Notes under the pieces: generated by a model | Database searches by the model: none | Told to the model about the DNA's origin: nothing | The model's input: the letters and a program-made list of their open reading frames with translations, nothing else | Program-made: the position numbers and the translations under genes | Virus record (IMG/VR): IMGVR_UViG_3300028048_000038 | Span: 128,001-192,000 of that record | Reading direction: 5' to 3' (one strand) | Origin: a virus | Taxonomy: Duplodnaviria > Caudoviricetes | Length of the DNA: 64,000 nt | Shown here: positions 2,675 to 50,316 of the stretch, piece after piece | How the letters are laid out: each line of letters starts with the position of its first letter | Numbering within the stretch: the stretch's first letter is position 1

Positions 2675-2690
2675 AACGTTTTCTTTTAGA

Positions 2691-2826
2691 GTGCGGTAGA
2701 GGAGTCGAACCTCTGTTTACGGCTTGGAATGCATAATTTTTTCAATAATACATCTGCTGTCTATTTCCTAACGGAAACGTTAAAAAACTTTTAAAGCGTT
2801 GTCCTAGACCACTAGACGAACCGCAC
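2691..2826 (-). tRNA. tRNA (UCC, Gly anticodon) interrupted at position 29/30 by a 64-nt ACAGCA-stem insertion (2733-2796)
   Basis: Acceptor GTGCGGT/ACCGCAC, D arm, T arm AGAGG TTCGACT CCTCT; removing the insert gives a perfect anticodon arm ACGGC ATTCCAA GCCGT. Confidence 0.75.
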
Positions 2827-3205: not shown

Positions 3206-4033
3206 TTAATGTTTGATGTTCCACATTGGGGTAGAACCACCACCAACCATCACATCAATATTTGCGCCATTCTTAGCTGCAATAGTCTCAATCCACTTCA
3301 GACTAATGAAGTCTTGCGTACTAAGACCAAGCTCCTCTCGATAAGCCTTATCAGCCTTTGCCCTCTGACGTTCAGCTTTCTCACGAGCTAACTCAACCTC
3401 AACTTGTCGCTCTTGAGTCTGCTTTGCTTGCACTGCCTTCGCTGTCTTATTCATTTCCGCAAGCTGCTCCTTATTAGGAATTGCCTTACCAATCGTTACC
3501 TGACGAATTGTTACTGGGAACTCCTTCTCCTTGGACAACTCTGCAACATAATTCTGCATCTGCTTGAGTACCTTTGTATCAATCTCATTCAGAATCGCTC
3601 GATTGGACATGAGGTCAAAGGGACTGTGCTGTGAGATATGGTCTCGCACAAGATTACAGTAGTAGTTGTAAAGGTTTGTGTTGAACCAATCAGTACCGTA
3701 GTTCTGCAAGAGAATTGGTGACTTACCCTTCTGAATCTGTGTGATGATAATGGTGTGGAAGTCCAACGGAGTATTGTCATCACTGAACAAGTCATCCATG
3801 TCTACTTGATGCTTGAAAGGTACAATCTTGAAAGTCTCTGTGTCAGTAGACCACCAAATCCACTCAAGACCAGTCTCAACTGGCTCATTCTGTACACCAC
3901 CATGACCCAAGAACCAAGGCTTGTCAATTAGAACTGTCTCCTCGTCAGCATTAACTGTGGTACAGCCGATGCAAGAGGTTAAACTTGTTGTTGCAAGGAA
4001 TGCAAACAATAACATTGTTAAAAATTTCTTCAT
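3206..4033 (-). CDS. SPFH/band-7 (prohibitin-like) lipoprotein
   Basis: Lipoprotein signal (LTSC), SPFH-like core, C-terminal coiled coil. Confidence 0.75.
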   Translation of the reverse strand: MKKFLTMLLFAFLATTSLTSCIGCTTVNADEETVLIDKPWFLGHGGVQNEPVETGLEWIWWSTDTETFKIVPFKHQVDMDDLFSDDNTPLDFHTIIITQIQKGKSPILLQNYGTDWFNTNLYNYYCNLVRDHISQHSPFDLMSNRAILNEIDTKVLKQMQNYVAELSKEKEFPVTIRQVTIGKAIPNKEQLAEMNKTAKAVQAKQTQERQVEVELAREKAERQRAKADKAYREELGLSTQDFISLKWIETIAAKNGANIDVMVGGGSTPMWNIKH

Positions 4034-4101: not shown

Positions 4102-4512
4102 TTAATATATGTTAACGTAATATGTTCCTACTTGTTTCTTAGCCTTTCTTACCAAAGATAAGCCATGTTCTTTCTCACTTGGGTCATACACAAACAATAA
4201 TTCGCCTTTCTTTCTATTACGTAACCTAATGCCAAAACTATGTTGTTTTGTGATTATGGTGTCTCTGAAATATCCAACATCTATAATCTTCCATTCCATT
4301 GAACCATATAGCTCATTGCATTTATTATATTGAGTATGTATGATTTGTTCATCCAAATATATTTCTCCACCTAGAGGAAATACAATACCTTTAGCCACAT
4401 GCACTTGGTTAGCAAACCTACAACCATAGTCGGTAATTTTAACAATATCGCCTATTGAAAATTCTAAATTATCCCTAGATTGAGCACCCCATTTTGTTAC
4501 AATTATATCCAT
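4102..4512 (-). CDS. hypothetical protein
   Basis: 136-aa ORF. Confidence 0.6.
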   Translation of the reverse strand: MDIIVTKWGAQSRDNLEFSIGDIVKITDYGCRFANQVHVAKGIVFPLGGEIYLDEQIIHTQYNKCNELYGSMEWKIIDVGYFRDTIITKQHSFGIRLRNRKKGELLFVYDPSEKEHGLSLVRKAKKQVGTYYVNIY

Positions 4513-8262: not shown

Positions 8263-8577
8263 ATTTCCTTGTTTTTAAATTTCTGATGTAAAGATACGAA
8301 AAAAAGTTGAACCAACCAAATGATTAATTCAACTTTAACACTCATTAACCTTACACTTGTTCTCGGCTCTATTCACCTTGTTGTAAAAGTTAATCCTTTT
8401 CAACTTAATAGTAAATTAGATTTACCTGTATCAACCATGAAGGTATCCTCTTAACCATCAAGGAACTAGGGCAAGGGACTAATCCTTGCACCGCATTACT
8501 GCTTCATCTGCCATTTCTTACATGGCTTGCGCTTGTCTAACCTATTTCAGTATTTCAATGAATACACCAAGCCGTAG

Positions 8578-8653
8578 TGAGCATAGTAGGATTCGAACCC
8601 ACGCCTTTTACGGTCCTAGAAGCCGTTGCAATCGACCACTCTGCCATATGCCC
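8578..8653 (-). tRNA. tRNA with CUA anticodon (candidate amber suppressor)
   Basis: GGGCATA/TATGCTC acceptor, ACGGC TTCTAGG ACCGT anticodon arm, canonical T arm. Confidence 0.65.
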
Positions 8654-10008: not shown

Positions 10009-11166
10009 TCACTGTTGTGCTTCAGTTAGAATTCTATAGCCCTCATTTTTGATATTAATTGCAGCGTTTATATCTCTATCAATACGTTCACCGCAATTAG
10101 GGCATATCCAATATCGTTCACTAAGTTTAAGGTCTTGCTTGACATATCCACAATGACTACAAGTTTTAGAGCTAGGGAAGAACCTATCAATCTCAACAAC
10201 CTTGACACCGTTCCAAGATGATTTATACTGTAGTTTGGTTTTAATCTCGTTAAACGAAGACTCTTGTATACTTTTTGCTAGGTGATGATTACTTACCATT
10301 CCTTTGACATTTAAGTTTTCAAGACATACAGCACTAGTTCTGCTATCATAAGCAATGTCGTGTGTAACCTTGTCAATGAACGCCTTCTTCCTGTTATTTA
10401 TTTTATTCTTGAATTTAGCTAGCTTCAACCTAGCTTTTTCTTTATTCCTAGAACCATTTTTCTTCTTCGATAGCCTTCTGCAAAGCATTTTATATTTTTT
10501 GTCCTCTTTGCTGTCAGTCCTCAATGAATTGTATTTAGTTCCATCACTAGTGATAATTGAATTTTTAACGCCTAAATCAATACCAATAACGGTATCATAT
10601 GTGACTTCTTTTTTTTCAAGCGGCTCTGTTGTATCCTTTACCAAAATCGAAATAAAGTATTGGTCTGACTTGTTATATGACAATGTAGCTTGCTTAATTT
10701 CTCCGTTGAATTTTCTATGAAGCCTAGCATCTATCAAACTTGTCAATTTTGGTATCTTCACCTTATTCTCAGCCCAGAACACCTTAATCCCTTGGTATGT
10801 CGTATATGACCCACTGAAACTCTTTTTTTTGAAGGCTGGACCACCAGCATCGGTTTTAACTCCTTGTTTTCTAGCTTTACAAGCCCTAAAGAAATTATTG
10901 TAGGAAGCATCCAAATATGTAGATGTCCATATTAGAGACTTTGCATCAACACTTTTAAGCCACGAGGTTTCTTCATTCTTTTTGAGAGAAGGTAATTCTC
11001 TAGCTACATTGTATTGACAACTTAAGTGCTCTCCAGTCTCTTTAAAACACTTCTTAATTTTATCAAGAGCATAATTGTAAAACCATCTATTAGCACCTAC
11101 GTTTTGTCTTATAAACTGTTTTTGCTCCTCAGTTGGATAAATTCTATACTTATATGCTCTTAACAT
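10009..11166 (-). CDS. tnpB: TnpB/Cas12f-like RNA-guided endonuclease
   Basis: RAYKYRIYPT N-terminus, RuvC-I GIDLG, RuvC-II CLENL, Zn finger CSHC/CPNC, RuvC-III DRDINAAINI; no TnpA nearby. Confidence 0.93.
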   Translation of the reverse strand: MLRAYKYRIYPTEEQKQFIRQNVGANRWFYNYALDKIKKCFKETGEHLSCQYNVARELPSLKKNEETSWLKSVDAKSLIWTSTYLDASYNNFFRACKARKQGVKTDAGGPAFKKKSFSGSYTTYQGIKVFWAENKVKIPKLTSLIDARLHRKFNGEIKQATLSYNKSDQYFISILVKDTTEPLEKKEVTYDTVIGIDLGVKNSIITSDGTKYNSLRTDSKEDKKYKMLCRRLSKKKNGSRNKEKARLKLAKFKNKINNRKKAFIDKVTHDIAYDSRTSAVCLENLNVKGMVSNHHLAKSIQESSFNEIKTKLQYKSSWNGVKVVEIDRFFPSSKTCSHCGYVKQDLKLSERYWICPNCGERIDRDINAAINIKNEGYRILTEAQQ

Positions 11167-11195: not shown

Positions 11196-11250
11196 CGGAA
11201 GCTAGTTAAACCTAGAGTTGCAATCTATGTAATATTGCTGTGAGCTTCCT
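11196..11250 (-). ncRNA. ACAGCA-stem RNA carrying a bare Cys(GCA) anticodon-like hairpin
   Basis: GGAAGCT-C-ACAGCAA...TAGA TTGCAAC TCTA...AGCTTCC. Confidence 0.65.
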
Positions 11251-11675: not shown

Positions 11676-11750
11676 TGGACCCAGACGGCTCTGCCCCGTC
11701 AACCTACTGCTTGCAAAACAGTCGCTCTAGCTAATTGGAGCTATAGGCCC
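11676..11750 (-). tRNA. tRNA-Ala (UGC)
   Basis: G3:U70 pair, loop TTTGCAA, non-canonical T loop GGCAGAG. Confidence 0.8.
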
Positions 11751-13609: not shown

Positions 13610-13683
13610 TGGCGGCACGCAAGAGTCGCACTTGGTGTTTCTAGGTTATGAGCCTAGCGTGTAATCTGTTTCACTCTGCCGCT
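13610..13683 (-). tRNA. divergent tRNA-Met (CAU)
   Basis: CTAGG CTCATAA CCTAG arm; weak D and T arms. Confidence 0.55.
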
Positions 13684-13699
13684 ATGTTATATAATAAAA

Positions 13700-13763
13700 C
13701 GGAAACTCTTGTTTACCCCTAAATTCACAGTTTAGTATAAAATTCACTTGCTGTTAGTTTCCT
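13700..13763 (-). ncRNA. ACAGCA-stem RNA carrying a bare His(GUG) anticodon arm
   Basis: GGAAAC-TA-ACAGCAA...CTAAA CTGTGAA TTTAG...GTTTCC; own promoter near 13785. Confidence 0.7.
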
Positions 13764-14147: not shown

Positions 14148-14324
14148 TTTTCAAAGAACTTTTTTTCTTTTATAAAATAATCAGCTACACGAACCTCTTC
14201 AATGTACTTATGAAAGATTCCCTTCCACGTATGTTATACAGATTAATACATGACTTTTATCCTAATATAGCATAACTTTACTGTAAAAGTTTACTTCATC
14301 ATCCAACCCTGACTGATTATTAAG

Positions 14325-14780
14325 TGGACTTGCGCAGAGTCGAACTGCGGTCACAATTACCGACCCATAAAGGATTATACAAGCTTAAGAAAATTGGTGA
14401 GTGGCTTGCGCCACCCTTCCTCTCTGCCACCTCATTTTGAGAAAACGAGGAAAACTTGGGGAATGACTAGAGTCACCGATTCCACCATTTGATTATCAGA
14501 ATGTTCTACCAAGCTGTCAACAGCTACAACACACCTAAGTGTTTTGAACTAAAGCATTGCTCCCAAGGTCTCGAACCAGGAACCTTTCTTCTAATCAAAA
14601 AAAATTTGCTAGGATGTTCTGTTCCTAAGAGCCTAGCCTCTCGGCTCACGCTTACGCAGCTATAGCGTACTCGTAAACAGGAGAATCTACGTTCTCTGCG
14701 TTTATTTTTTTTGCTATTTGAAGTGTATGCCCACTGCTTGTCCTTTACCAGACGCATAACGTTCTATACCATTCAAGCCC
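14325..14780 (-). ncRNA. ssrA: tmRNA; tag peptide AENVDSPVYEYAIAA* (14652-14699)
   Basis: 5' GGGCTTG pairs with 3' CAAGTCC-A including G3:U70; terminal T arm CGCAG TTCGACT CTGCG; internal tag ORF ending YAIAA-stop. Confidence 0.88.
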
Positions 14781-14869: not shown

Positions 14870-15088
14870 TTATAAATATACAATCTTGGAATTTTGTTCA
14901 AACTCTTCAAACGTTCCATTGAATCTATACCAATTTGAACCACTTCCTCTATCAAAGAATACTCTTACCACATTCTCACCATTTTCTTTGTATGAGTAAA
15001 TATCAGTAATTGTACTCCTTTTGATTCGTGCCTTATTGCCATCTTTGAAATCTATTTCCAAGTATGGCTCTGCATATTCATAGTTCAT
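14870..15088 (-). CDS. hypothetical protein
   Basis: 72-aa ORF overlapping the stop of the adenylyltransferase. Confidence 0.6.
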   Translation of the reverse strand: MNYEYAEPYLEIDFKDGNKARIKRSTITDIYSYKENGENVVRVFFDRGSGSNWYRFNGTFEEFEQNSKIVYL

Positions 15089-15645
15089 ACGTCTTGAAAT
15101 GCTTCAATGAAATGTTTCAAAATAACTGCATTTTCAGCAACACAAGTTGGTACTGCTTCTGCAAGTGCCTCTTCATCACCTTTGAGAATCATTTGTCTTA
15201 CCTTTGTGGCAGACAAGTTGTTGTGGATTGCACCTCTAGCATTCAATTTAAAAGAAACGAAGTCTCTTGTAATGAATGGAGGAAACCACTGCATGATAAT
15301 CTCAAATCCATCTGAATAATAAATGGTGAATTCAGGTGACTTAGTGATTCCTACTATATGGCTGTAGAGATAAAACCCCCAATCATGAGAATTATCTGAT
15401 TCATCTGTAAGGTCATTGAGTGGCATTACTTTAACTTTGCCAGCATCCTCACCAAACTCATCAGTAATAGCCTTGTTTGCCAAATCCAAACGCATTGCGA
15501 TAGGAATTGGATTACGCTTATTCAACTTATCTGCTGAACCGACAAGGATAAGAACCTCGTCATTCTCATTAAGAGCTTGTCTAACCAACTCAAGGTGTCC
15601 TTTGTGGATTGGCTGAAGTCTTGCGATAATTACACCTACTGCCAT
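15085..15645 (-). CDS. NMN/NaMN adenylyltransferase (NadM-like cytidylyltransferase family)
   Basis: ARLQPIHKGH (HxGH), GSA...RNP, LSATKVR motifs. Confidence 0.85.
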   Translation of the reverse strand: MAVGVIIARLQPIHKGHLELVRQALNENDEVLILVGSADKLNKRNPIPIAMRLDLANKAITDEFGEDAGKVKVMPLNDLTDESDNSHDWGFYLYSHIVGITKSPEFTIYYSDGFEIIMQWFPPFITRDFVSFKLNARGAIHNNLSATKVRQMILKGDEEALAEAVPTCVAENAVILKHFIEAFQDV

Positions 15646-15669: not shown

Positions 15670-15803
15670 CGGAAACGTTTTTAACATTTTAAGTTGCTCT
15701 ACCGGACTGAGCTACAAGGAGCTTACACCCCTCGATGGGATTTGAACCCATGACCTACTGCTTACAAGGCTTATTAAAAAATAACCATTGCTGTCTGTTT
15801 CCT
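15670..15803 (-). ncRNA. circularly permuted tRNA-Thr(UGU)-like RNA clamped by ACAGCA stem
   Basis: Order: GGAAAC-AG-ACAGCAA, GC CTTGTAA GCAGT, V, T arm, 3' acceptor CGAGGGG, loop, 5' acceptor CTCCTTG, D arm, ACT, GTTTCC. Confidence 0.8.
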
Positions 15804-16143
15804 TGGTGCTTGTGGTAGGATTTGAACCTACTGTTCTGTCAACCCTTGTGGGTCTCGTAGATGTTACCTATTCATATGTCTTCAAGCATTTGGGAGCGTT
15901 TGTTTTTAAAGTGTGATTCGCCCTTTCAACAAGACCTGAGGTTTCCGAAGATTCCACTATTACAGTTCTCTTGTTCCACTGTTTCTTTTGGTTAAAGTCC
16001 TAACTTACCTTTATACTTGTAAGCGAGCCATCCACCAACTAAACCAATGATAAGTTCAAACATAGTATTTAATTTTAAATTGTTTAACGATGCAAAGATA
16101 TGAAAAATATTTGAGATAACCAAATTTTTCTTGTTAATAATTA

Positions 16144-18113: not shown

Positions 18114-18776
18114 TTATCTATATTTAAATCCGTTTTTAGTGCAAGTAGCCATGAATTCATCAACGTCTCCCATTGAGATATCTATTGGCTTTGAATTATA
18201 TTCTTCTTCAAGTTCTTTTTCAATTTCATCACTATCCTCATGCCCAAGTTCCCTTGTTTTAGTATCAACAGCCTTTAAGATTGATGGTATTCTATAATCG
18301 CCATGCATAATCTTTACCATATTTGAATAATGTTCTGCAAGACAAGGCTCACTGCATGTCACAAATAATGGCTTTGCTGATTCCAAACCACGCTCAATAT
18401 CATAGCAATCTGGTATCTCCACATGATATCTGTTCTTGGCAACACCAACAACTGTTATCTTCTCACCATATTTCTCAAGTATCGCTTCTTGAAGATGAGC
18501 ACCCAATCCCTTTGTCAATGTCTTTCCATCCTCAGAAAGCCATACAAAGCCATCTACCATGATAAGGGTAATGTCCTTAAGTGGTAATAGTGTCAAACAC
18601 TGCATAATGCATGGAAGCTCACGCTTATAGAGTTCACCTGGTTTATAGTCAGCATCAATACACATCCTCTTGCTAGTGGCATAATATAAAACCTCCTTGT
18701 CATTCCATGACTTAAATACACCAGCTACGGTATATGAGTAACCGTTGTAATAATATGTATCAAAAGCAACTATCAT
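18114..18776 (-). CDS. endonuclease V-like (deoxyinosine 3' endonuclease) protein
   Basis: AFDTYY, YKPGELYKRELP, VDG and GVAK motifs. Confidence 0.8.
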   Translation of the reverse strand: MIVAFDTYYYNGYSYTVAGVFKSWNDKEVLYYATSKRMCIDADYKPGELYKRELPCIMQCLTLLPLKDITLIMVDGFVWLSEDGKTLTKGLGAHLQEAILEKYGEKITVVGVAKNRYHVEIPDCYDIERGLESAKPLFVTCSEPCLAEHYSNMVKIMHGDYRIPSILKAVDTKTRELGHEDSDEIEKELEEEYNSKPIDISMGDVDEFMATCTKNGFKYR

Positions 18777-20462: not shown

Positions 20463-20586
20463 CGGTGACGTGTGGACTCGAACCACAGACCAACGGATTA
20501 ACAATCGACATTCATAATCTGCTGTGGGTTACGCACACGAGGTAACACGTGAATTTACGCTGCTCTACCAACTGAGCTACGTCACC
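20463..20586 (-). tRNA. tRNA-Asn (GUU) interrupted at 29/30 by a 51-nt ACAGCA-stem insertion (20507-20557)
   Basis: Canonical acceptor, D and T arms; removal gives GCGGA TTGTTAA TCCGT; insert has GTTAC/GTAAC-CC-ACAGCAG. Confidence 0.8.
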
Positions 20587-20595
20587 ATGTAAAAA

Positions 20596-20727
20596 GGGTA
20601 CATAAAACCAACATTTCAACCCCTCCAGTTTATTTAATTCTCTTTGCGGAGGGGGTGGGAATCGAACCCACGTTACACAAATTGACAGTCTGTTTGAAGT
20701 GTAAATTTATACTTGCTGTGTGTACCC
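20596..20727 (-). ncRNA. circularly permuted tRNA-Asp(GUC)-like RNA clamped by ACAGCA stem (D arm lost)
   Basis: GGGTAC-AC-ACAGCAA, ACAGA CTGTCAA TTTGT, T arm, CCCCTCC-G, linker, GGAGGGG, GTACCC. Confidence 0.75.
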
Positions 20728-20862
20728 ACTATTAAAATCCAAAGTAACCTTCCCTGATATCGAACCTTTGGCACACCATTACAGACTGATGTGTTCTGTT
20801 CTAGATTCCTCACCATACAAAATTACGTCTGTACGTCTATTATATGATTTCTCCTAGCATCG

Positions 20863-20945
20863 AGCTGGGGACAGGATTCGAACCTGCGAGGGCTTTCGCC
20901 TTTGGGTTACAAAGCCAACCTATTCAACCACTCTAGCACCCCAGC
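20863..20945 (-). tRNA. tRNA-Thr (UGU) with long variable arm
   Basis: G1:C72 and C2:G71, loop TTTGTAA, V arm GGC GAAA GCC; a Tyr (GUA) reading is less well positioned. Confidence 0.7.
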
Positions 20946-26542: not shown

Positions 26543-26693
26543 AGGAACGGTCAATTTATTGTCATGACTAGACATTCGCTCCGAAGAGCATAGATAAGTG
26601 CCTCGCAATTATGATTTAGTGCTTCGCTTATCCTCATTTACGAATCTAATTAACAAAATGCTTTTAAATAAGTAAATGCTGCTGTACGTTCCT
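26543..26693 (-). ncRNA. 151-nt ACAGCA-stem RNA with non-tRNA cargo
   Basis: 5' AGGAAC-GT-ACAGCAG ... 3' GTTCCT. Confidence 0.6.
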
Positions 26694-28897: not shown

Positions 28898-29036
28898 CGG
28901 AAACATTTTATTCTCCAATAGCCGTGTTTACCAATTCCACCAACGCCCTCGTTAAGATAGACGTGTGGGAGTCGAACCCACAAACCGTTACGGTAGCAAT
29001 TTACAATAATAACTCTTTATTTGCTGGATGTTTCCT
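28898..29036 (-). ncRNA. circularly permuted tRNA-Tyr(GUA)-like RNA clamped by the stem motif (CCAGCAA variant)
   Basis: GGAAAC-AT-CCAGCAA, loop TTGTAAA, V arm ACCG TAA CGGT, T arm, ACGTCT, linker, GGGCGT, D arm, GTTTCC. Confidence 0.75.
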
Positions 29037-32792: not shown

Positions 32793-32913
32793 CGGAAACA
32801 TTTATCCATCTTAGCTATCACGCCAACCTTGGTAGCGTGAGTTGGACTCGAACCAACGACCCTTAAATTATCAGTTTAATGCTATACCTATTAATACTTG
32901 CTGTATGTTTCCT
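32793..32913 (-). ncRNA. circularly permuted tRNA-Ile(GAU)-like RNA, opened in the D loop, clamped by ACAGCA stem
   Basis: GGAAAC-AT-ACAGCAA, GGTATAGC-A, TTAAA CTGATAA TTTAA, T arm, TCACGCT-ACCA, linker, GGCGTGA-TA-GCTA, GTTTCC. Confidence 0.8.
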
Positions 32914-32981: not shown

Positions 32982-33056
32982 TGGGTGAAAGGAGAATTTC
33001 GCAATCTCGACCTCTAGAGCCACAATCTAGCGTTCTACTTCTGAACTACAATCACC
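32982..33056 (-). tRNA. tRNA-His (GUG)
   Basis: G-1, C73, loop TTGTGGC. Confidence 0.85.
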
Positions 33057-33339
33057 ATATTTGAACAGTAGTATATACCATTACGAGCAGATACCATTAT
33101 CAGTTACAATCAATTACCTCAACATATCGTCATCATTTTTACAGTACTACTATTATATGACTATTGTTTGTCTACTTCTTATCATGTCTGTTCTTCTGTG
33201 TAGACTTCCCAGCATTGCACGAAGCGGAGACTACAATCCCCCAAGGCGTGAACCGTATCGGACTCGAACCGATGTTTCGCAGTTTGCTATGCATTATACC
33301 GCATTTGCTATCCACGTTGCATAAACGGCTCATAAAAAT

Positions 33340-33455
33340 CGGAATCCTTTAACTTTAGGTAGATATGGACTCGAACCATAATCTCTTGGTAAAATCCAAG
33401 GCTCTAACCAATTGAGCTATCCATCTGATGTTATATCCATTGCTGTAAGATTCCT
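33340..33455 (-). ncRNA. ACAGCA-stem RNA enclosing a whole unpermuted tRNA-like cloverleaf (6-nt anticodon loop)
   Basis: GGAATC-TT-ACAGCAA...AGATGGA, D arm, CTTGG ATTTTA CCAAG, T arm, TCTACCT...GATTCC. Confidence 0.7.
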
Positions 33456-35156: not shown

Positions 35157-35231
35157 GGGAACATTTTTTAACCGTACTCTTAAAACCCAAAATTAATTAC
35201 TTGTTAATAGAAATACTTGCTGTGTGTTCCC
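35157..35231 (-). ncRNA. minimal ACAGCA-stem RNA
   Basis: GGGAAC-AC-ACAGCAA...GTTCCC. Confidence 0.65.
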
Positions 35232-36590: not shown

Positions 36591-36661
36591 TAGCGGAATT
36601 AGGTACTGCCCCTAAGTCTAGTCCTTGAGAGAGACTTGTTCTACTTTTAAACTATACCGCC
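36591..36661 (-). tRNA. tRNA-Glu (CUC) with non-canonical T loop
   Basis: AGTCT CTCTCAA GGACT; T loop GGCAGTA. Confidence 0.7.
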
Positions 36662-37507: not shown

Positions 37508-39055
37508 TTAAAGTTTTAACATATCAAATAATGAATTCGTGGACTTAGAATTTCTGTCATTTTGGTTAACGCCCATAATCTTAAACATGCCATTCAAGTC
37601 CTTTGAAAGTGTCTTCAATGAAGAATCAAGTGTATCGAAATACACATCAAGACTATCCATATATAGGTTAAGAGAGCTTAATCCATTTGCTATTTTAATA
37701 TTCGGCATTTTAGGGAAGCTTGGGATTTTGATGTTGTATTCTTTCATCTTATCTACGGCTTGCTCCACTAGTTTTCTCTTTTCCTTAAGTCTTCTTTCTT
37801 CCTCGGCTATTCTCTTTTGTCTTTCTTTCTCTTCCCTCTCAATTCTCTCTTTTCTAGCCTTTTCTTTTCTAGCTTTCTCTGCTTCATACTCTTCAACTGT
37901 ATAAGCACCCAATTCATCCCAAGCAATCTTGAAATGGTCGTTTGGATTAAAACCATCCAAGTAAGGTCTCTCAACACCACTTTTTCCATCAATTGCGGTT
38001 GGGTCATTGGTGTGTTTCACAAGTTTGATAAGTATATACACTGTATCGTCCTCAGAAATGAAGTTGCCGTGAGTATAATTCAAACCGCTTGGATATGCAA
38101 TCTGGGCATCCAATCTTGTATTTGACGCAATCATGACTCCATTTTTTGTTTCTCCACTTGGCTTTTCATACACGATTGGCTCATCGCTTGTAACTCTCAA
38201 GGACTTCATGAATCTTTCTTCCTTAATCAGTTTACCGCTTGGCGTTACCACATAACCATCAGAATAATCCTTAAAGCCATTAAGCTTCAATAAGACATAT
38301 CTGATTGTGTTATCTATTTCGCTTGTTGGTGTAGTGCCCAAGTTGTTTTTATCGAATGGTATTGTTTCCTTAACTCTTCGCCAACTAAGGTGTTTTGGGA
38401 ATAGTTGCAATCCATTTTCATATTCTATCCCCATGCATTCGCAATCATGCTTTGAGAGAGTAAAGATTTTATCTTTGTATCCACCAACTTGTTTAACGAT
38501 TACTGAATTAATATTGATACCATCGTACTCATCATGTACGCCAACAAGTTCATATATCTTCTCAGGCATTTCGAATCCCTCACAAGACACACCACTTAAT
38601 GCATACTTTTCTCCTTTTATAAACTTTGGAATACAATTACTTGGCTCATTGACAACCCCCATATCCGTGAAATCGACAGCCTCAAACATTTCCTTTGGAT
38701 GATAAAATAAGTTTTCGACATACCCACTGTCATTTTTTGCTGAACTTGGGTATGCATATGATTTCAGCGTAGTATTGCGTTTGAAGTCAGCATCTACCAT
38801 TTCACTGATACCACTAATCACTTTATTTGACATCTTTGGTCTAGCTATACATGGACTTGCTATTTTTCCCATAGGGTTATGAGTTAATTCAGATAATTTA
38901 ACTGCTATTTCTCTGCCATCTGAGGCATTTTTAAGGTGAATGTAGTCACCAATAACATATGCGCTAGAAACAGTCCAATCATCACTTAGGGTGATTGGAA
39001 CTAGTTCTATCTTATTGTTTCTGTATGTATTTACTAATACTTGCTTATAGTTCAT
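37508..39055 (-). CDS. hypothetical protein with C-terminal coiled coil
   Basis: 515-aa ORF coupled to TelA-like gene. Confidence 0.7.
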   Translation of the reverse strand: MNYKQVLVNTYRNNKIELVPITLSDDWTVSSAYVIGDYIHLKNASDGREIAVKLSELTHNPMGKIASPCIARPKMSNKVISGISEMVDADFKRNTTLKSYAYPSSAKNDSGYVENLFYHPKEMFEAVDFTDMGVVNEPSNCIPKFIKGEKYALSGVSCEGFEMPEKIYELVGVHDEYDGININSVIVKQVGGYKDKIFTLSKHDCECMGIEYENGLQLFPKHLSWRRVKETIPFDKNNLGTTPTSEIDNTIRYVLLKLNGFKDYSDGYVVTPSGKLIKEERFMKSLRVTSDEPIVYEKPSGETKNGVMIASNTRLDAQIAYPSGLNYTHGNFISEDDTVYILIKLVKHTNDPTAIDGKSGVERPYLDGFNPNDHFKIAWDELGAYTVEEYEAEKARKEKARKERIEREEKERQKRIAEEERRLKEKRKLVEQAVDKMKEYNIKIPSFPKMPNIKIANGLSSLNLYMDSLDVYFDTLDSSLKTLSKDLNGMFKIMGVNQNDRNSKSTNSLFDMLKL

Positions 39056-40350
39056 TATTCATTGAGCAACTTTGGGTCTCTCTTCCCACGAAGTTCACTT
39101 GAGATAACTTTCTGAGTGGACTCTGCAACACCGATTGCTTTCATATGCATTTCCTTCTCAAGCTTTGCAATTTCAGCCTCGGCAGCAGCACGTCTTTCAG
39201 CACCTTCCTTCTGAGCCTTTTGTACCCCCTCTACAGTGGCTACAAGCTCTTGTGTAGACTTACGAAGAGTCTCTACATCAAGAACCATACGCTGACTCTG
39301 TTTCGCAACCTCAATGGCTTGTACCTTCATCATTTCAGCGTTCTTACGGAACAACTCATTGGTGGTATCAGTTACCTTTGTACCAATCTCAATGGCTTGC
39401 TTCTGGTCATACAATGCCACAGCCAATGACAACTGATTCTTCCAAAGAGGAATTGTCATAGCAATCTGAGACTCAGTGTTGTTAGCATGCATGATGTTTG
39501 TACGCTGAATAATACGAATCTGAGTCAATGACTGCTTAAACGCATAACGAAGGGCGATAAGGTCAGTGAGTCGCTTATCAAGAGCATTCTTGTACTCTTC
39601 GATGTCACTAATCTGATACTCTTCATACTCATTTGAGCGTGACTTCATATCGTCAATCAGTGTACCAAGCTCCTCAGACTTCATCTTACCTGCTACGATA
39701 AGGTCTTCCAATTGGTCTACATAATCACAGTTATTCTCAAACTGCTTCTGCAAGAGATTATTATCTCGAATGGCAATCTGACGTGTTGCCTCAAGCTTCT
39801 TAACAATACCGTCAATGTTCTTCTCGATAGTGTTGTACTTAGCCTTAATCTGCTCAACAGAAATAACGAGTCTCTTAAGTCCAGGAATACGTCTCAAGAA
39901 TCTCTTGACTGCATTAGGTGCTTCAAGGTCGTTAATGTCAACCTCATGCAACTCACCCAAGAGGTTTGAAATCAACTGAGCTGACTCAATACCAGCCTTG
40001 GAATCAAATGATTGCTTAAGGAAGTCACTTGAGTATGAACTCATTGCTCTCTGGAGGTCTGAGCCATAGCTAGTAATGGTTGACATTTCCTTCTCATTGA
40101 GAACTGATGCAATCTCCTTATAATACGCTTTACGAGCTGGAGTAAGATTACTCGTATTAATCTCTCCACTATCATCAACACGCTTCAGTGAGGTACTACC
40201 ACTAGTAAGTTCAGTCTCTGCCTCTGCTGAAATCTCATCAAGGGCACGTCTTGTGCGTGTTGGAGACTTACGAGTAGTTCTCTTAACTCTTGGCTTCTTC
40301 ACTTCACTTACTTCAGCCTCAACAATTGTTTCTTTTGTCTTTTTCGCCAT
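39055..40350 (-). CDS. toxic anion resistance protein (TelA/KlaB family)
   Basis: Long helical protein with TIPLWKNQL..A and N.L.R.NAEM signature. Confidence 0.85.
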   Translation of the reverse strand: MAKKTKETIVEAEVSEVKKPRVKRTTRKSPTRTRRALDEISAEAETELTSGSTSLKRVDDSGEINTSNLTPARKAYYKEIASVLNEKEMSTITSYGSDLQRAMSSYSSDFLKQSFDSKAGIESAQLISNLLGELHEVDINDLEAPNAVKRFLRRIPGLKRLVISVEQIKAKYNTIEKNIDGIVKKLEATRQIAIRDNNLLQKQFENNCDYVDQLEDLIVAGKMKSEELGTLIDDMKSRSNEYEEYQISDIEEYKNALDKRLTDLIALRYAFKQSLTQIRIIQRTNIMHANNTESQIAMTIPLWKNQLSLAVALYDQKQAIEIGTKVTDTTNELFRKNAEMMKVQAIEVAKQSQRMVLDVETLRKSTQELVATVEGVQKAQKEGAERRAAAEAEIAKLEKEMHMKAIGVAESTQKVISSELRGKRDPKLLNE

Positions 40351-41409: not shown

Positions 41410-42768
41410 TCATCTTCTCTTGTCCTCTGCTGCCTTGATGTTCATCTTTGGCTTCATGAAGAACTTGATGTCAACTGTTGGCTCAATGAGTTTCACAATC
41501 TCATCCATTGGCTTGTATGCAGCTGGAGCCTCATCCAATGTTTTCTCGTCAGCAGTGGTGGTATAGATACCAGCATCTGCCATCTGCTTCTTGAACTCCT
41601 CAACATCCAAGGTCTTGTTAGCCTTATCACGAGACATAGAACGTCCACAGCCATGCGGGGCTGTCCAGTTCCAATCCTCGTTTGACTTACCTTCACAGAT
41701 TGAGATACCATCCCTCATATTGAATGGGATAATTAACTTCTCTCCCTCATAGGCACGAATAGCACCCTTACGAATCATCATATTTGGCTTTCCACTCAAC
41801 GCCTTAAAGTCATAATCGATGTAATTATGAGTAGTGGCAATAAAGTCAATTGGCTTGCCACCATCTGACATCTTACGATAAATTTCAACCAACTGCTCGT
41901 GGATAACCTCGTGGTTCAACTTGGCATATACTTGAGCAATCAAGACATCGACAAGATAACCCATAAGTTTGTCACCGTTCAAGTATCCTGGAATCTTACG
42001 TGATAAGTACTCCTCTCTTGCTGCATCAATCTCTGCCTTAATCTTCTTTCTATCAGTATTCTTCTCCTTGACCTTATCCTCAAGCATCTTCATTTCCTCT
42101 CTAGAAACTACCATGCTTCTTGCTATCTTATCCCAATAGTTGAATACAGCCAAGCCCAACTTACGTGAGCCACAGTGTACGCACATGCAGTACTTACCAA
42201 GGTCATCATTAACATCGTACTCCACAAAATGATTACCACCACCCACAGAGCCAATAGACTTCATGAAATCACCATAAGGAATGTGTACATGTTTACACCA
42301 ATTCTCTAAATCCATTTCTGAGTTGAAATAGATTGCATAGTCCACAAACTTAGGATAAAGTGAAACCAATCTATCCATAGCTGAATTAATAGCCTTTGCA
42401 ATTCGCTTCCAATCAATCTTGGACTTGTCATTGATGGTGAATCCAAACGGAATATCCTTGCGAATCTTGTGCTCAAACTCCTTCATCTTATCCTCGACAA
42501 TAGGCTTGTCGAAGAAAGTGGCAGAGATTGTACAACCAATGTCACAACCTACATGCTCAGGATTAACGTGGTCTGTTTCAATGTTAACTGGGCATGAGAA
42601 TCCAATCACAATGCCCTTACCATCGTGACAATCAGGCATGATACGAATCTTTCTATCCTTAAATGCCCTACAATCAGCAATCCTATATATCGTTGACAAT
42701 GCGGTCTCCTCCACATTGTCGGTAAAGACCTTTATGTACTTACAATACTGTCCTTTAATTTCTAACAT
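41410..42768 (-). CDS. rtcB: RtcB-family RNA 2',3'-cyclic phosphate/5'-OH ligase
   Basis: MPDCH, VGCDIGC, GGGNHFVE, HCGSR, HNY, RKGA, PHGCGR, DEAP.AYK. Confidence 0.95.
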   Translation of the reverse strand: MLEIKGQYCKYIKVFTDNVEETALSTIYRIADCRAFKDRKIRIMPDCHDGKGIVIGFSCPVNIETDHVNPEHVGCDIGCTISATFFDKPIVEDKMKEFEHKIRKDIPFGFTINDKSKIDWKRIAKAINSAMDRLVSLYPKFVDYAIYFNSEMDLENWCKHVHIPYGDFMKSIGSVGGGNHFVEYDVNDDLGKYCMCVHCGSRKLGLAVFNYWDKIARSMVVSREEMKMLEDKVKEKNTDRKKIKAEIDAAREEYLSRKIPGYLNGDKLMGYLVDVLIAQVYAKLNHEVIHEQLVEIYRKMSDGGKPIDFIATTHNYIDYDFKALSGKPNMMIRKGAIRAYEGEKLIIPFNMRDGISICEGKSNEDWNWTAPHGCGRSMSRDKANKTLDVEEFKKQMADAGIYTTTADEKTLDEAPAAYKPMDEIVKLIEPTVDIKFFMKPKMNIKAAEDKRR

Positions 42769-45464: not shown

Positions 45465-46433
45465 TTAATGTAATAAAATATTTCCATCTTTAAGATTTAT
45501 ACAAACCTCAAGATTTCTACGTTTAAATTCGCTATTCCAAGAGCGCATACAAACCTTACGTACAGAGTCCACTCCATATAAATCTCCAAGATTTGGTACA
45601 AACTCTTTGTCACTCTTCTTGCAAGCCTCCATTCTACGCTGCTTAACATCTTCATTTTCAACATCAAATACAGTATTTTTAATGGATTCTGTTAAGCCAT
45701 CAGTAGCATACATTGGTTTAATCTTCTCTGAAAGACCGTCCCATTTGCTTAATACGTGGTCAATCTCATTATAAGTATATCCTGGCATTATCTGTTCAGC
45801 ATCACCTCCAGCTTTAACCCCATTACCATCTGTAGGTATGAGTGCAATCGACTGCTCAAGTGCCTTAGAATCTTTGAAAACATTTTCCTTCATCCACTTT
45901 GCAAGAGCGTAAACTTCTGTTTTCCAAAGTTCACCAATTGGGTTTATATCACCAACATCACCATGTAGTGTCCAAAAGCCTGTTAGCCACTCAGTTTTAT
46001 TTGATGTGCCCATTACAATACCTCCAACCTTTGAAGCGATATCGTACAACGTAATCATACGCAAACGTGCCTTGATGTTACCTTGTGAAATTGGTGTCTT
46101 CTCCTTACCGCTAGCCTCAGTACAGAACTTCTCCATTACCTCATATGGCTCTTGTAGGTTAACCACCTTGAAAGTGTCACAGAACTCGGTGCCAGCAGCC
46201 TTGGCTGCATCATTCTCCACATCTGCATTGGTTGAGCATGGAAGAGATACGCCAATAAGGGGAATGTTTCCAGCCTTACATAGTGCAGCTACTACTGTGG
46301 AGTCAATACCACCACTTAATCCAAGAACTACAACCTTAATATGATTCTGATTTACATAACTCTTAATTCCCTCTACAAGAATCTTAAATACAACTTCCAT
46401 ATCTAATGGAATTGGACGATACGTTTCTACCAT
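45465..46433 (-). CDS. nadE: NH3-dependent NAD+ synthetase
   Basis: LGLSGGIDS, GNIKARLRM, GTSNKTE...G..T.HGD. Confidence 0.93.
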   Translation of the reverse strand: MVETYRPIPLDMEVVFKILVEGIKSYVNQNHIKVVVLGLSGGIDSTVVAALCKAGNIPLIGVSLPCSTNADVENDAAKAAGTEFCDTFKVVNLQEPYEVMEKFCTEASGKEKTPISQGNIKARLRMITLYDIASKVGGIVMGTSNKTEWLTGFWTLHGDVGDINPIGELWKTEVYALAKWMKENVFKDSKALEQSIALIPTDGNGVKAGGDAEQIMPGYTYNEIDHVLSKWDGLSEKIKPMYATDGLTESIKNTVFDVENEDVKQRRMEACKKSDKEFVPNLGDLYGVDSVRKVCMRSWNSEFKRRNLEVCINLKDGNILLH

Positions 46434-46435
46434 AT

Positions 46436-46969
46436 TTATTTATTGTTTATTGCTTTCCTTACTTTATCCTTTCTAAATGCTTCAATGTCAACATCCATCT
46501 TTATCTTGCGACACTTATCAGCAAGTTCCTTAACTTCATCAATAGTCAATGCTGCCTCCAACTGTATATCTGCCATAGATGGAATCGTAGATGGTGCTGA
46601 AACCATAAACCTTGGTTCAAGATTCTTATTAATCACAATTCTACCCAATAATTTTCCAAGTGAACTAAATGATTCTTGAAGACGTTTGATATTATAAGTG
46701 TCATAAGGTTTTAAATCAACCTTAACATCATCCAAAGATAATTTTTCCATCTTACTAGCAAAGTCCATAAGAGAATCATAGAATTTATCACCGAATCTAT
46801 CAGCATATTCGGTTATACCATCTAATTCTTCTTTTACATCATTTTGAAGGTCGGCAATCCTTCTTTCTTCAGCTTCTTTTTTTTCGTTGCGGTCAGATAG
46901 TACCGATTGCGCAAGACATAAAAAAACAATTCCTAAACTTATTAATAGAATATATAAAACACCCATAAT
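46436..46969 (-). CDS. hypothetical membrane-anchored protein
   Basis: N-terminal TM helix; start approximate. Confidence 0.55.
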   Translation of the reverse strand: MMGVLYILLISLGIVFLCLAQSVLSDRNEKKEAEERRIADLQNDVKEELDGITEYADRFGDKFYDSLMDFASKMEKLSLDDVKVDLKPYDTYNIKRLQESFSSLGKLLGRIVINKNLEPRFMVSAPSTIPSMADIQLEAALTIDEVKELADKCRKIKMDVDIEAFRKDKVRKAINNK

Positions 46970-47040
46970 TACATTATTTTTTTGCAAAGATACGAAAAAA
47001 AACTGAGACTACCAAATGATAATCTCAGTTTTAATATTAT

Positions 47041-48642: not shown

Positions 48643-50316
48643 TTAAATATTAATGTAGTTCAAAATCTCTTGGCTAAGAGCCTTTTCAACTAGCTCTTCG
48701 GCAGTCATCTGACGCACCTCACCTGTTTTCTCGTCAATCACTTTAGTATCTCCCATCAGCATTGTGATGATTGAAGGGTCAAAGCCAGAAAGGAATGTAC
48801 ATCCTGGTTCTATCGACTTACCCTCAAAGTGAGTAACACCATGCCTTGAAGCTACATCCCACCAAATGAATTTCATGTTATTCACGAACTCCTCTGGGAA
48901 CACTGTCTTCAATGACCTTACTGAGTACTCATAGTTGGTTGGCTCAGTACGTCTTGAGTACCATCCTCCAGTTGGGTTAAACTCCATATCACTTACAACC
49001 AATATACTTGTACAATACTGCTCAAGTGGAATCTCAGGGTGTTCCTTTCTAATCTTAATAATCTCGTCAACCGCAGATTGGAAGTTAGTACCACCGCAAC
49101 CCACGCTTGGAAGATTCATTATTCTATCGCAGAATGAATCACCCTTCATGTCATAAGGTGTTGACACATTATCGAACATGATGACCTTGTTATGGAATGG
49201 ACCAGTGTTAAGGTCAGCAAAGAACAGTGCAAGAGAACTTGCAACATCTGAACAGTAAATATCCTTTAAGCCAGTAACTGGCTGGTTCATACTTCCACTA
49301 GTATCAAGGCAACACCATACATTCTCAGTAATTCTACCGCCATCACGTGCCTTGTCTACAAGACCCTTAAACTGTGCATCAAGGGTGTGCTTAACCTCTA
49401 GAGGAATTGTCATAGAACCTCTACGATATCCACGTGAACCACGTGCCTCACGAAGACGTTTTGCAAGCTCGAAGACATAACCAGTGAATTTTGCTACTGG
49501 CTGCTGCATAATCCACTCTGTGTAGTTATCCTTCAAACCGTGATTTGAAAGGAACTTACTTGTTACAAGGAGGTTAAGAGCACGACCTGGAATGTGATTC
49601 CAATTCAAATCCTTATAGTTACGAGAACAAATCAACTTTTGGAAGTCGTGTGCTCTACCGCTTGACTTCATCTTATTGTACTCCTTATAGGTAATACCCA
49701 TCTGATTAGCAAATGCCTTTGCCAAATCATTAGTGATGGTAGTCCACTCAGTTTTGCACTTGCTCTGTGACTTGATACGAGGCATATACTTCTTAATCAA
49801 GTCAACATGTGTGTCACAAAGCAAACCTTGTGCAATAACCTCAAAGAGTGCCTTTTGATTTAAGCACTTGATGTTATCCTTGATGTCGTAGTACATGAGT
49901 GTCCACAAGTCCTTCCAAGAACCAACAAGAGGCAATGCCCAAATGTTCTTGTAGAATGCGTCCTTTTGCTCTTGAGCAATCCAAAGCAAACGCTTGAATG
50001 ACTCGTCACGAGCACCTTGACCATTCTGAACCTTATCAGTCTCATTATCGGCATTCACCTTAACCTTGCGTGTAACCATACGAAGGTAGAATGGGAAACG
50101 AAGAGCTGCACTTGGATTCTCAGCCCAAATTGTAGCTTGGTCAGCAAATACTTCTGCTAGTGTACGTCCTCTGAAGTTACCAGCCTTACCGAATTGGTCA
50201 ACAATGGCACTACCGCTAGAAATAAGAGTTTTTGCCCCGTTTTCGGTAGTTGTAAAACTCTCGAATCCCACTGCATCAATAAATGCGTTTGTCTTTGTTG
50301 CTGTTTTTGTATTCAT
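48643..50316 (-). CDS. TROVE-like/vWA protein (DUF2828-like, Ro60-related architecture)
   Basis: TENGA N-terminus, G.G.R, GSWKDL, helical region, then MIDAS CLDTSGSM, GTNF, VSDMEF. Confidence 0.75.
   Translation of the reverse strand: MNTKTATKTNAFIDAVGFESFTTTENGAKTLISSGSAIVDQFGKAGNFRGRTLAEVFADQATIWAENPSAALRFPFYLRMVTRKVKVNADNETDKVQNGQGARDESFKRLLWIAQEQKDAFYKNIWALPLVGSWKDLWTLMYYDIKDNIKCLNQKALFEVIAQGLLCDTHVDLIKKYMPRIKSQSKCKTEWTTITNDLAKAFANQMGITYKEYNKMKSSGRAHDFQKLICSRNYKDLNWNHIPGRALNLLVTSKFLSNHGLKDNYTEWIMQQPVAKFTGYVFELAKRLREARGSRGYRRGSMTIPLEVKHTLDAQFKGLVDKARDGGRITENVWCCLDTSGSMNQPVTGLKDIYCSDVASSLALFFADLNTGPFHNKVIMFDNVSTPYDMKGDSFCDRIMNLPSVGCGGTNFQSAVDEIIKIRKEHPEIPLEQYCTSILVVSDMEFNPTGGWYSRRTEPTNYEYSVRSLKTVFPEEFVNNMKFIWWDVASRHGVTHFEGKSIEPGCTFLSGFDPSIITMLMGDTKVIDEKTGEVRQMTAEELVEKALSQEILNYINI

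What the first reader, a model, noticed from the sequence alone, without database searches (positions are those of the whole stretch)
15670..15803. Circularly permuted tRNA-Thr(UGU): 3' half precedes 5' half, break again at 29/30
Seen: the order is clamp strand, anticodon loop, V, T arm, 3' acceptor strand, 6-nt loop, 5' acceptor strand, D arm, ACT, clamp strand. This is the circular permutation of the intron-type copies. Known: permuted tRNA genes are described from some algae and archaea, where they mature through a circular intermediate, and YrlA has the same topology. Inference: either a permuted tRNA gene in a bacteriophage or an anticodon-bearing Y RNA.
Basis: partly seen in the sequence, partly recalled or inferred. 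Interest (0 to 1): 0.88.

Follow-up and report, generated by a model that had tools for sequence, protein, structure and literature searches.

The report
Scrambled-tRNA partner of phage Ro60-like protein
A giant phage carries a real, conserved "back-to-front" threonine tRNA look-alike that is most likely never stitched into a working tRNA, but is one of about 13 small RNAs sharing a short "handle" that travels with a ring-shaped Ro60-like protein in very many phages: probably an undescribed second kind of Ro/Y-RNA particle.

Summary
Confirmed. On the minus strand (15802-15671) the 3' part of tRNA-Thr(UGU) (30-73) precedes the 5' part (1-29). Ten phage orthologs keep all 27 base pairs, 10 with compensatory changes, including one across the break. 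It is probably not a spliced permuted tRNA gene: there is no bulge-helix-bulge, no splicing endonuclease, no fixed spacing, and the acceptor helix has an extra 73:-1 pair in 10/10 orthologs, closing a 3-6-nt loop. The clamp is a handle (6-bp stem, 2 nt, ACAGCA) shared by about 13 RNAs of this 409-kb phage carrying varied tRNA parts. The handle travels with a DUF2828/DUF7788 protein (window 48643-50316) whose model matches only Ro60 structures. It was found in all 14 named DUF2828-encoding phages examined (usually beside the gene; variant forms in three) and only at chance level in T4, T5 and K. A cultured mycobacteriophage has the same 29/30 layout; the Bas63 homologue is a reported counter-defence gene. 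It fails the YrlA definition (no GNCGAAG motif, no Pfam TROVE) but works like one, and resembles Dictyostelium Class I RNAs. Binding, expression and function are inferred, not shown. This scan found the same family earlier in several other genomes.

The parts
15671..15802 (-). The element: handle RNA carrying a circularly permuted tRNA-Thr(UGU) mimic, opened at 29/30 (132 nt)
15788..15802 (-). Handle, 5' side: 6-nt stem strand (15802-15797), 2 nt, ACAGCAA (15794-15788)
15757..15770 (-). tRNA positions 30-43: 2-bp stub, 7-nt anticodon loop (UGU at 15766-15764), 3' strand of anticodon stem
15735..15756 (-). Variable region and T arm
15715..15734 (-). Acceptor-like hairpin: 3' strand 66-72, U73.G-1 pair, GUAA tetraloop (15726-15723), 5' strand 1-7; no CCA
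15692..15714 (-). Positions 8-29: D arm, A26, ACT (27-29) pairing with 41-43
15671..15676 (-). Handle, 3' stem strand
2689..2826 (-). Linear tRNA-Gly(UCC) with the handle as a hairpin insert at 29/30 (unpermuted counterpart)
11197..11249 (-). Handle RNA, anticodon stem-loop only (GCA)
13701..13762 (-). Handle RNA, anticodon stem-loop only (GUG)
20463..20586 (-). Linear tRNA-Asn(GUU) with handle insert at 29/30
20596..20727 (-). Handle RNA, permuted Asp(GUC)-like, reduced D arm
26543..26693 (-). Handle RNA with non-tRNA cargo
28899..29035 (-). Handle RNA (CCAGCAA variant), permuted Tyr-like, 6-bp acceptor helix
32245..32332 (-). Handle RNA with anticodon-like loop and T arm
32794..32912 (-). 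Handle RNA, permuted Ile(GAU)-like opened in the D loop, CCA in the linker
33341..33454 (-). Handle enclosing a whole unpermuted cloverleaf
35157..35231 (-). Handle RNA, minimal hairpin cargo
48643..50316 (-). DUF2828 + DUF7788/vWA protein, 557 aa, Ro60 fold; inferred binding partner
41410..42768 (-). RtcB RNA ligase (context; no link to the handle shown)

Best explanation
The element is a small non-coding RNA with two modules. The handle (terminal 6-bp stem plus single-stranded ACAGCA) is bound by the phage's Ro60-fold DUF2828 protein, as Y RNAs are bound by Ro60. The other module is a tRNA mimic that stays permuted and unspliced: T arm, D arm and a capped acceptor helix form the tRNA elbow, and a Thr(UGU) anticodon loop is displayed from a three-way junction where the handle enters the anticodon stem. 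The particle most likely serves in the conflict over host translation, presenting tRNA-shaped bait or docking sites to host tRNA-attacking nucleases or other tRNA-recognising enzymes. Shown: anatomy, conserved pairing, handle family, co-occurrence with the protein, Ro60-like fold. Inferred: expression, binding, absence of splicing. Most speculative: the bait role (about 0.35-0.4 on its own).
For: Covariation in 10 orthologs. Handle stem varies (22 different 6-mers in 35 copies, which were selected for a perfect stem) beside a near-fixed ACAGCA, whatever the cargo. DUF2828 in 13/14 handle-bearing records, 0/14 control genomes. All 13 Foldseek hits at E<=0.001 are Ro60/TROVE. Handles abut the gene on the same strand in distant genomes: 4 upstream on a MAG contig, 5 in Leptolyngbya phage Lbo-JY46, 3 in mycobacteriophage LilDestine incl. 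a permuted Asn(GUU) opened at about 29/30, and in 7 of 9 further cultured phages within 2 kb; the other two carry them slightly further away or in their tRNA arrays (GAP32 11, K567 3). T4 0/160 kb, T5 1/120 kb, K 3/140 kb chance-like hits, none with DUF2828. In K567 the handle stem covers the gene's own start codon, as expected for autoregulation. Against maturation: 73:-1 pair in 10/10, 11/45 family acceptor helices closed by 4-nt loops and 11/45 only 5-6 bp; cargoes with only an anticodon loop; ordinary tRNA genes for the same anticodons exist, e.g. Thr(UGU) at 20862-20945. Bas63 gp130, a homologue (24% over 507 aa) with three handle RNAs beside it, is a reported counter to the Ppl defence system (PMC11482910).
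Against: In this genome the protein gene is 33 kb from the element. Model confidence is moderate (pLDDT 72, pTM 0.52; best TM-score 0.51). Handles in Aeh1, Lak-A1 and one Bas63 copy are variants found only with looser rules; GC-rich Bxz1 gives 7 hits under the same rule. Only three negative phages were scanned. Ppl is described as a DNA-end exonuclease, not a tRNA nuclease (PMC12904381), so the one genetic link does not support anticodon bait. Anticodon loops drift in the Ile-type subfamily. The rejoined Thr sequence is a perfect cloverleaf, and RtcB plus a CCA/poly(A)-type nucleotidyltransferase are encoded.
Confidence: 0.65

Rival explanations
1. Genuine permuted tRNA gene: the handle directs an unknown nuclease (or Ro-like particle) to cut at 29/30, RtcB ligates to a circle, RNase P/Z open the acceptor loop, CCA is added. 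The linear Gly, Asn and His copies would be protein-spliced introns.
For: Perfect 5-bp anticodon stem on rejoining; both halves of that stem covary; the same break in permuted and linear copies and in a mycobacteriophage; U follows position 29 in 10/10; RtcB and a CCA-type enzyme are encoded; archaeal permuted tRNAs can have a 1-nt linker (PMC3978253).
Against: No BHB, no EndA, variable spacing; break point moves within the family (D loop, after the D arm, 29/30); capped 8-9-bp acceptor; pair 2-71 is U.G in 8/10 and 1-72 and 73 vary, unlike a charged tRNA-Thr (C2-G71 identity, from my own knowledge); many handle RNAs cannot yield a tRNA.
Confidence: 0.1
2. Partly processed Y-like RNA: not spliced, but RNase P and the CCA enzyme open the acceptor loop, giving a two-piece tRNA-like RNA held by the handle, possibly chargeable.
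For: M. smegmatis YrlA with a 7-bp acceptor stem is cut by RNase P and gains CCA (PMC4201824); the Ile copy has CCA in its linker and some copies have 14-19-nt linkers.
Against: For this Thr copy the helix is 8 bp with a tetraloop and no CCA; the 73:-1 pair is kept by compensatory change and such pairing hinders RNase P cleavage at +1 (own knowledge).
Confidence: 0.12
3. The handle is recognised by something other than the DUF2828 protein (a host protein, the Band-7/SPFH protein, RtcB), or acts as a processing signal of the tRNA operon.
For: Band-7, TelA and RtcB genes are in the same window; Dictyostelium Class I RNA, with a similar motif, binds an RRM protein directly (PMC7919456).
Against: Handles sit directly beside DUF2828 genes in phages of cyanobacteria, actinobacteria, firmicutes, fusobacteria and campylobacters, far beyond one host group.
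Confidence: 0.1
4. Artefact or relic: outer-degenerated tandem tRNA pair (the 'dimeric tRNA' false positive known for YrlA searches), without function.
For: Lies in a dense tRNA array; Chen et al. warn of such false positives.
Against: No D arm upstream or T arm downstream; halves pair with each other and covary; conserved in different gene contexts.
Confidence: 0.03

Closest known systems
Bacterial/phage YrlA Y RNA with Ro60/Rsr (Rfam RF02553; Chen et al. 2014, PMC4201824); Thermus phage phiLo Ro60 with Yrl1/Yrl2 (PMC12135203)
   Same: Topology T arm - closed acceptor stem - D arm on a terminal stem; encoded with a Ro60-fold ring protein, same strand, often adjacent; several RNAs per protein.
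   Different: No GNCGAAN0-1G/CGAA motif but stem-NN-ACAGCA; partner is DUF2828/DUF7788, not Pfam TROVE; keeps an anticodon loop; about 13 copies with interchangeable tRNA cargo; 36 bits against a gathering score of 69.
Circularly permuted tRNA genes of Cyanidioschyzon, green algae and Thermofilum (Soma 2014, PMC3978253)
   Same: 3' half precedes 5' half with a short linker across the acceptor stem; rejoined sequence is a normal cloverleaf.
   Different: No BHB at the junction, no EndA in the phage, bacterial host, extra 73:-1 pair, redundant ordinary tRNA gene; no circular intermediate shown.
Dictyostelid Class I RNAs (Rfam RF01414; Kjellin et al. 2021, PMC7919456)
   Same: Terminal 6-bp stem conserved in structure not sequence, adjacent single-stranded motif ending UUACAGCAA, variable interior, ends often AAG...CUG (17/35 and 11/35 phage copies); a Leptolyngbya phage copy scores 39.3 bits (gathering 41.5).
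   Different: One nucleotide fewer between stem and motif; this genome has no significant RF01414 hit; Class I RNAs carry no reported tRNA cargo, were reported only in dictyostelids, and no Ro-like partner is reported.
Lak megaphage tRNA introns (10.1101/356790)
   Same: Short non-group-I inserts in jumbo-phage tRNAs, incl. Thr(UGU), of unknown splicing route.
   Different: The Lak-A1 inserts I extracted lie in the anticodon loop and showed no handle; Lak-A1 handles are separate small RNAs.
Felixounavirus Bas63 gp130 (PMC11482910)
   Same: Same protein family; authors note the Ro60 fold and guess that nearby tRNA genes may be Y RNAs.
   Different: They identified no RNA; the three handle RNAs lie between the annotated tRNAs (82240-82910 of MZ501086).

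Membership tests
YrlA Y RNA | T arm, closed acceptor-like stem, D arm in permuted order on a terminal stem | tested here: met
YrlA Y RNA | 5' GNCGAAN0-1G Ro-binding motif | tested here: not met
   absent in 10/10 orthologs
YrlA Y RNA | Rfam RF02553 score at or above 69 bits | tested here: not met
   36.2 bits
YrlA Y RNA | TROVE-domain Ro60 gene within 4 kb, same strand | tested here: not met
   no PF05731 hit; a Ro60-fold DUF2828 gene is on the same strand 33 kb away, adjacent in other phages
Y RNA in the broad sense | Bound and stabilised by a Ro60-family protein | not testable with these tools
   inferred from co-occurrence only
Ro60 family (protein 48643-50316) | Helical-repeat ring closed by a vWA domain with MIDAS | tested here: met
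   model and Foldseek; invariant DxSxS at 338-342; sequence identity only 12-15%
Permuted tRNA gene | 3' half upstream of 5' half; halves form a full cloverleaf | tested here: met
Permuted tRNA gene | BHB motif at the junction | tested here: not met
   0-2 of 4 central pairs in 10/10
Permuted tRNA gene | tRNA splicing endonuclease available | tested here: not met
   no PF01974 in the phage; host unknown; an unrelated nuclease is not excluded
Permuted tRNA gene | Circular intermediate and mature CCA-ended tRNA | not testable with these tools
Dictyostelid Class I RNA | Terminal 6-bp stem with adjacent 11-nt motif | tested here: inconclusive
   stem and last nine or ten motif positions match in many copies, spacing one nt shorter
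Dictyostelid Class I RNA | RF01414 gathering score 41.5; 42-65 nt; DUSE promoter | tested here: not met
   no significant hit in this genome; element is 132 nt; best family member 39.3 bits; DUSE not tested

The most novel reading that the evidence does not exclude
The handle is a splicing signal: the Ro60-like particle with RtcB excises it and joins 29 to 30, so this is a working permuted tRNA gene in the bacterial world, matured without BHB or EndA, and the linear copies are protein-spliced phage tRNA introns.
Probability: 0.1. Interest if true: 0.95.

Novelty: new variant of a known kind. Interest (0 to 1): 0.72.

Why it matters
If the best reading holds, DUF2828 proteins (632 INPHARED phage records hit) are a second branch of Ro60 with their own, uncatalogued RNA partners, and phages deploy libraries of tRNA mimics on one protein scaffold. 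It names the RNAs that the Bas63 knockout study could only guess at, so the open question of what phage Ro/Y particles do becomes testable in E. coli and M. smegmatis. The likeness to Dictyostelium Class I RNAs offers a testable origin and partner for an RNA class thought unique to social amoebae. It also warns that permuted or 'intron-containing' phage tRNA calls may be mimics. Caveat: Iyer et al. 2021 (PMC7824862) mention jumbo-phage ROT/TROVE proteins with a tRNA-like partner, citing Burroughs and Aravind 2016, which I could not read; part of this may be anticipated there.

Tried and rejected
Rfam gathering scan of the window: only tRNAs and tmRNA. Pfam TROVE search: none, which first misled me; the protein is found only as DUF2828/DUF7788 and by fold; phmmer against PDB found nothing. 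blastn of the locus in cultured phages: nothing relevant. BHB splicing: rejected. Tandem-tRNA or long-intron pairing with distant halves: rejected. Theta/HDV-like, hammerhead and pistol ribozyme readings were considered from memory and dropped because strand order and core motifs do not fit; not tested with a model. A pattern 'canonical loops in handle RNAs, altered loops in ordinary tRNAs' was looked for by eye and not found consistently. Burroughs and Aravind 2016, Sim et al. 2020 and the Lak and YrlA supplements were not held. Ten literature searches found no paper on these RNAs or on DUF2828 as an RNA-binding protein. L031 (archaeal bin, 2.2-kb contig) has one handle but no DUF2828 in its bin.

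Full report
Setting. The window is 128001-192000 of a complete 409,537-bp virus record with 35% G+C. It holds most of a large minus-strand tRNA array, a tmRNA, RtcB, TyrRS, IF3, a sigma factor and NAD enzymes. TAnnTTTG boxes upstream of genes suggest a Bacteroidota host (interpretation from my own knowledge).

Observation. On the minus strand the element reads handle strand, ACAGCAA, AU-rich spacer, tRNA positions 30-73, short linker, positions 1-29, spacer, handle strand. Rejoined in silico it is a clean tRNA-Thr(UGU). Pattern scans of IMG/VR returned orthologs in other jumbo phages; four of the nine were found without specifying the anticodon and still have UGU. Across ten sequences all 270 cells pair, ten of 27 pairs change on both sides, and pair 29-41, which spans the break, is U-A in five and G-C in five. 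No other half in the genome fits better. The linker is better described as a 73:-1 pair closing a tetraloop.

The clamp is a family handle. The same module, a 6-bp stem followed after two nucleotides by ACAGCA, occurs about 13 times in the tRNA region (11 strict hits in 50 kb against 0.47 expected from shuffles). Cargo varies: a lone anticodon stem-loop, anticodon plus T arm, a whole cloverleaf, permuted tRNAs opened at 29/30 or in the D loop, and linear tRNAs with the handle as a hairpin insert at 29/30. The finding is the exact circular permutation of the last type, opened in the handle hairpin's loop. Stem sequence varies widely while the motif is near-fixed, the usual signature of a protein-binding site.

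The partner. Pfam TROVE is absent. DUF2828 is present in 13 of 14 handle-bearing records and none of 14 control genomes. Starting from the protein instead, handle RNAs lie directly beside the gene in a MAG contig, an NCBI contig and cultured phages of Leptolyngbya, Mycobacterium and E. coli, and of Enterococcus, Listeria, Campylobacter, Bacillus, Fusobacterium, Synechococcus and Staphylococcus. GAP32, like this phage, keeps eleven in its tRNA array far from the gene; K567 has three, one covering the gene's own start codon; Aeh1 and Lak-A1 have variant handles. T4, T5 and K lack the protein and give none or chance-like hits. The negative set is small, the rule gives spurious hits in GC-rich DNA, and no phylogenetic correction was made.

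Spliced gene or mimic. Known permuted tRNA genes need a BHB at the junction, EndA, and opening of the acceptor loop (PMC3978253). Here the BHB central helix does not form in any ortholog, the distance from handle to junction varies from 10 to 19 and 8 to 15 nt, and the phage has no EndA. The acceptor helix gains an eighth or ninth pair in all ten Thr orthologs through U.G, U-A, G-C or A-U at 73:-1; among 45 permuted family members 11 are capped by 4-nt loops, one a UUCG, and 11 have only 5-6 bp. The break point moves among family members. Ordinary genes for the same anticodons exist in the genome. These points favour an unspliced mimic of the YrlA kind. In favour of splicing remain the perfect rejoined stem, the recurrence of 29/30 (also in mycobacteriophage LilDestine), and RtcB plus a CCA/poly(A)-type nucleotidyltransferase. 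No RNA data could be had.

Mechanism. Most likely the Ro60-fold ring binds the handle and carries a tRNA-shaped module that displays a Thr anticodon loop. Its purpose is inferred: many handle RNAs show only anticodon loops, which suggests bait or docking for host enzymes that act on tRNA. The one genetic datum is that Bas63 gp130, a homologue, counters the Ppl system (PMC11482910); this supports counter-defence in general, but Ppl is described as a DNA-end exonuclease, so it does not support anticodon bait in particular. Tethering to a nuclease such as PNPase, as for phiLo Ro60 (PMC12135203), is equally open.

Comparison. It works like YrlA but fails its definition: no GNCGAAN0-1G motif, 36 of 69 bits, no TROVE gene within 4 kb. 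It is not a member of the permuted tRNA gene class by the BHB test. Unexpectedly, minimal family members resemble Dictyostelium Class I RNAs: 39.3 bits against a gathering score of 41.5, with the same stem-plus-motif design and often the same AAG and CUG ends. This genome has no significant hit to that model, so homology is a lead only.

Novelty and verdict. I found no Rfam family or paper for these RNAs; one unread review may anticipate part of it. Earlier agents of this scan reached the same family reading on other genomes; that is not independent evidence. Verdict: real and conserved; a new variant of the Ro/Y-RNA kind (confidence 0.65 for the unspliced partner RNA), 0.1 for a true spliced permuted tRNA gene. 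Interest 0.72.

Noticed in passing
window 15803-15895 (-): Uncalled tRNA-like element directly upstream: 6-bp acceptor-like stem, T arm, ends in CCA abutting the handle; stem and T loop conserved in L003, L005, L018 with a divergent interior. Its processing could make the handle RNA's 5' end.
   Followed up: partly
L096 ~3490-3530 (Vibrio phage K567, OZ196593): A minimal handle RNA encloses the Shine-Dalgarno sequence and pairs over the start codon of the DUF2828 gene: possible translational autoregulation.
   Followed up: partly
L051 6924-7273 (Leptolyngbya phage Lbo-JY46): Five tandem handle RNAs with five different stems; four align to Rfam Dictyostelium Class I RNA.
   Followed up: partly
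L003 ~4205-4252 (+): A handle-like stem with ACAGCAA lies inside the tmRNA of this relative; the window's tmRNA (14322-14780) lacks it at that place.
   Followed up: no
window 20862-20945 (-): The ordinary Thr(UGU) gene has a long variable arm and a C.C mismatch at 31-39.
   Followed up: no
window 11676-11750 (-): tRNA-Ala(UGC) with G3.U70 but a non-canonical T loop, missed by ARAGORN; similar odd T loops at 13610-13683, 32984-33055 and 36591-36661.
   Followed up: no
window 8577-8653 (-): tRNA with CUA anticodon (amber suppressor-like), although TAG ends 34 of 260 long ORFs under code 11.
   Followed up: no
window 33248-33331 (-): tRNA-like gene with an expanded D-loop region and an irregular anticodon arm.
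   Followed up: no
window 10009-11166 (-): IS605-type TnpB gene inside the tRNA array.
   Followed up: no
window 15085-15645, 18114-18776, 39055-40350, 45465-48333 (-): Nucleotidyltransferase of NadR/NMNAT type, endonuclease V, TelA, NAD synthase and TyrRS; a Band-7/SPFH protein, HIT, CinA, DnaK/DnaJ elsewhere in the window.
   Followed up: no
genome 107031-107438 (-), outside the window: CCA-adding/poly(A) polymerase-family gene, 466-aa frame.
   Followed up: no
L046/L047 (contig 47 of a Chroococcidiopsis MAG): Contig of mostly short co-oriented ORFs with DUF2828, four handle RNAs and tRNAs; probably a phage or prophage piece in the bin.
   Followed up: partly
L098 2337-2523 and 10003-10167 (Lak-A1): Lak tRNA inserts containing nested T-arm-like hairpins; no handle detected in them.
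   Followed up: partly
L091 4384-4505 (Aeh1): Linear tRNA-like gene with an insert in the anticodon arm region, about 2.8 kb downstream of the DUF2828 gene.
   Followed up: no
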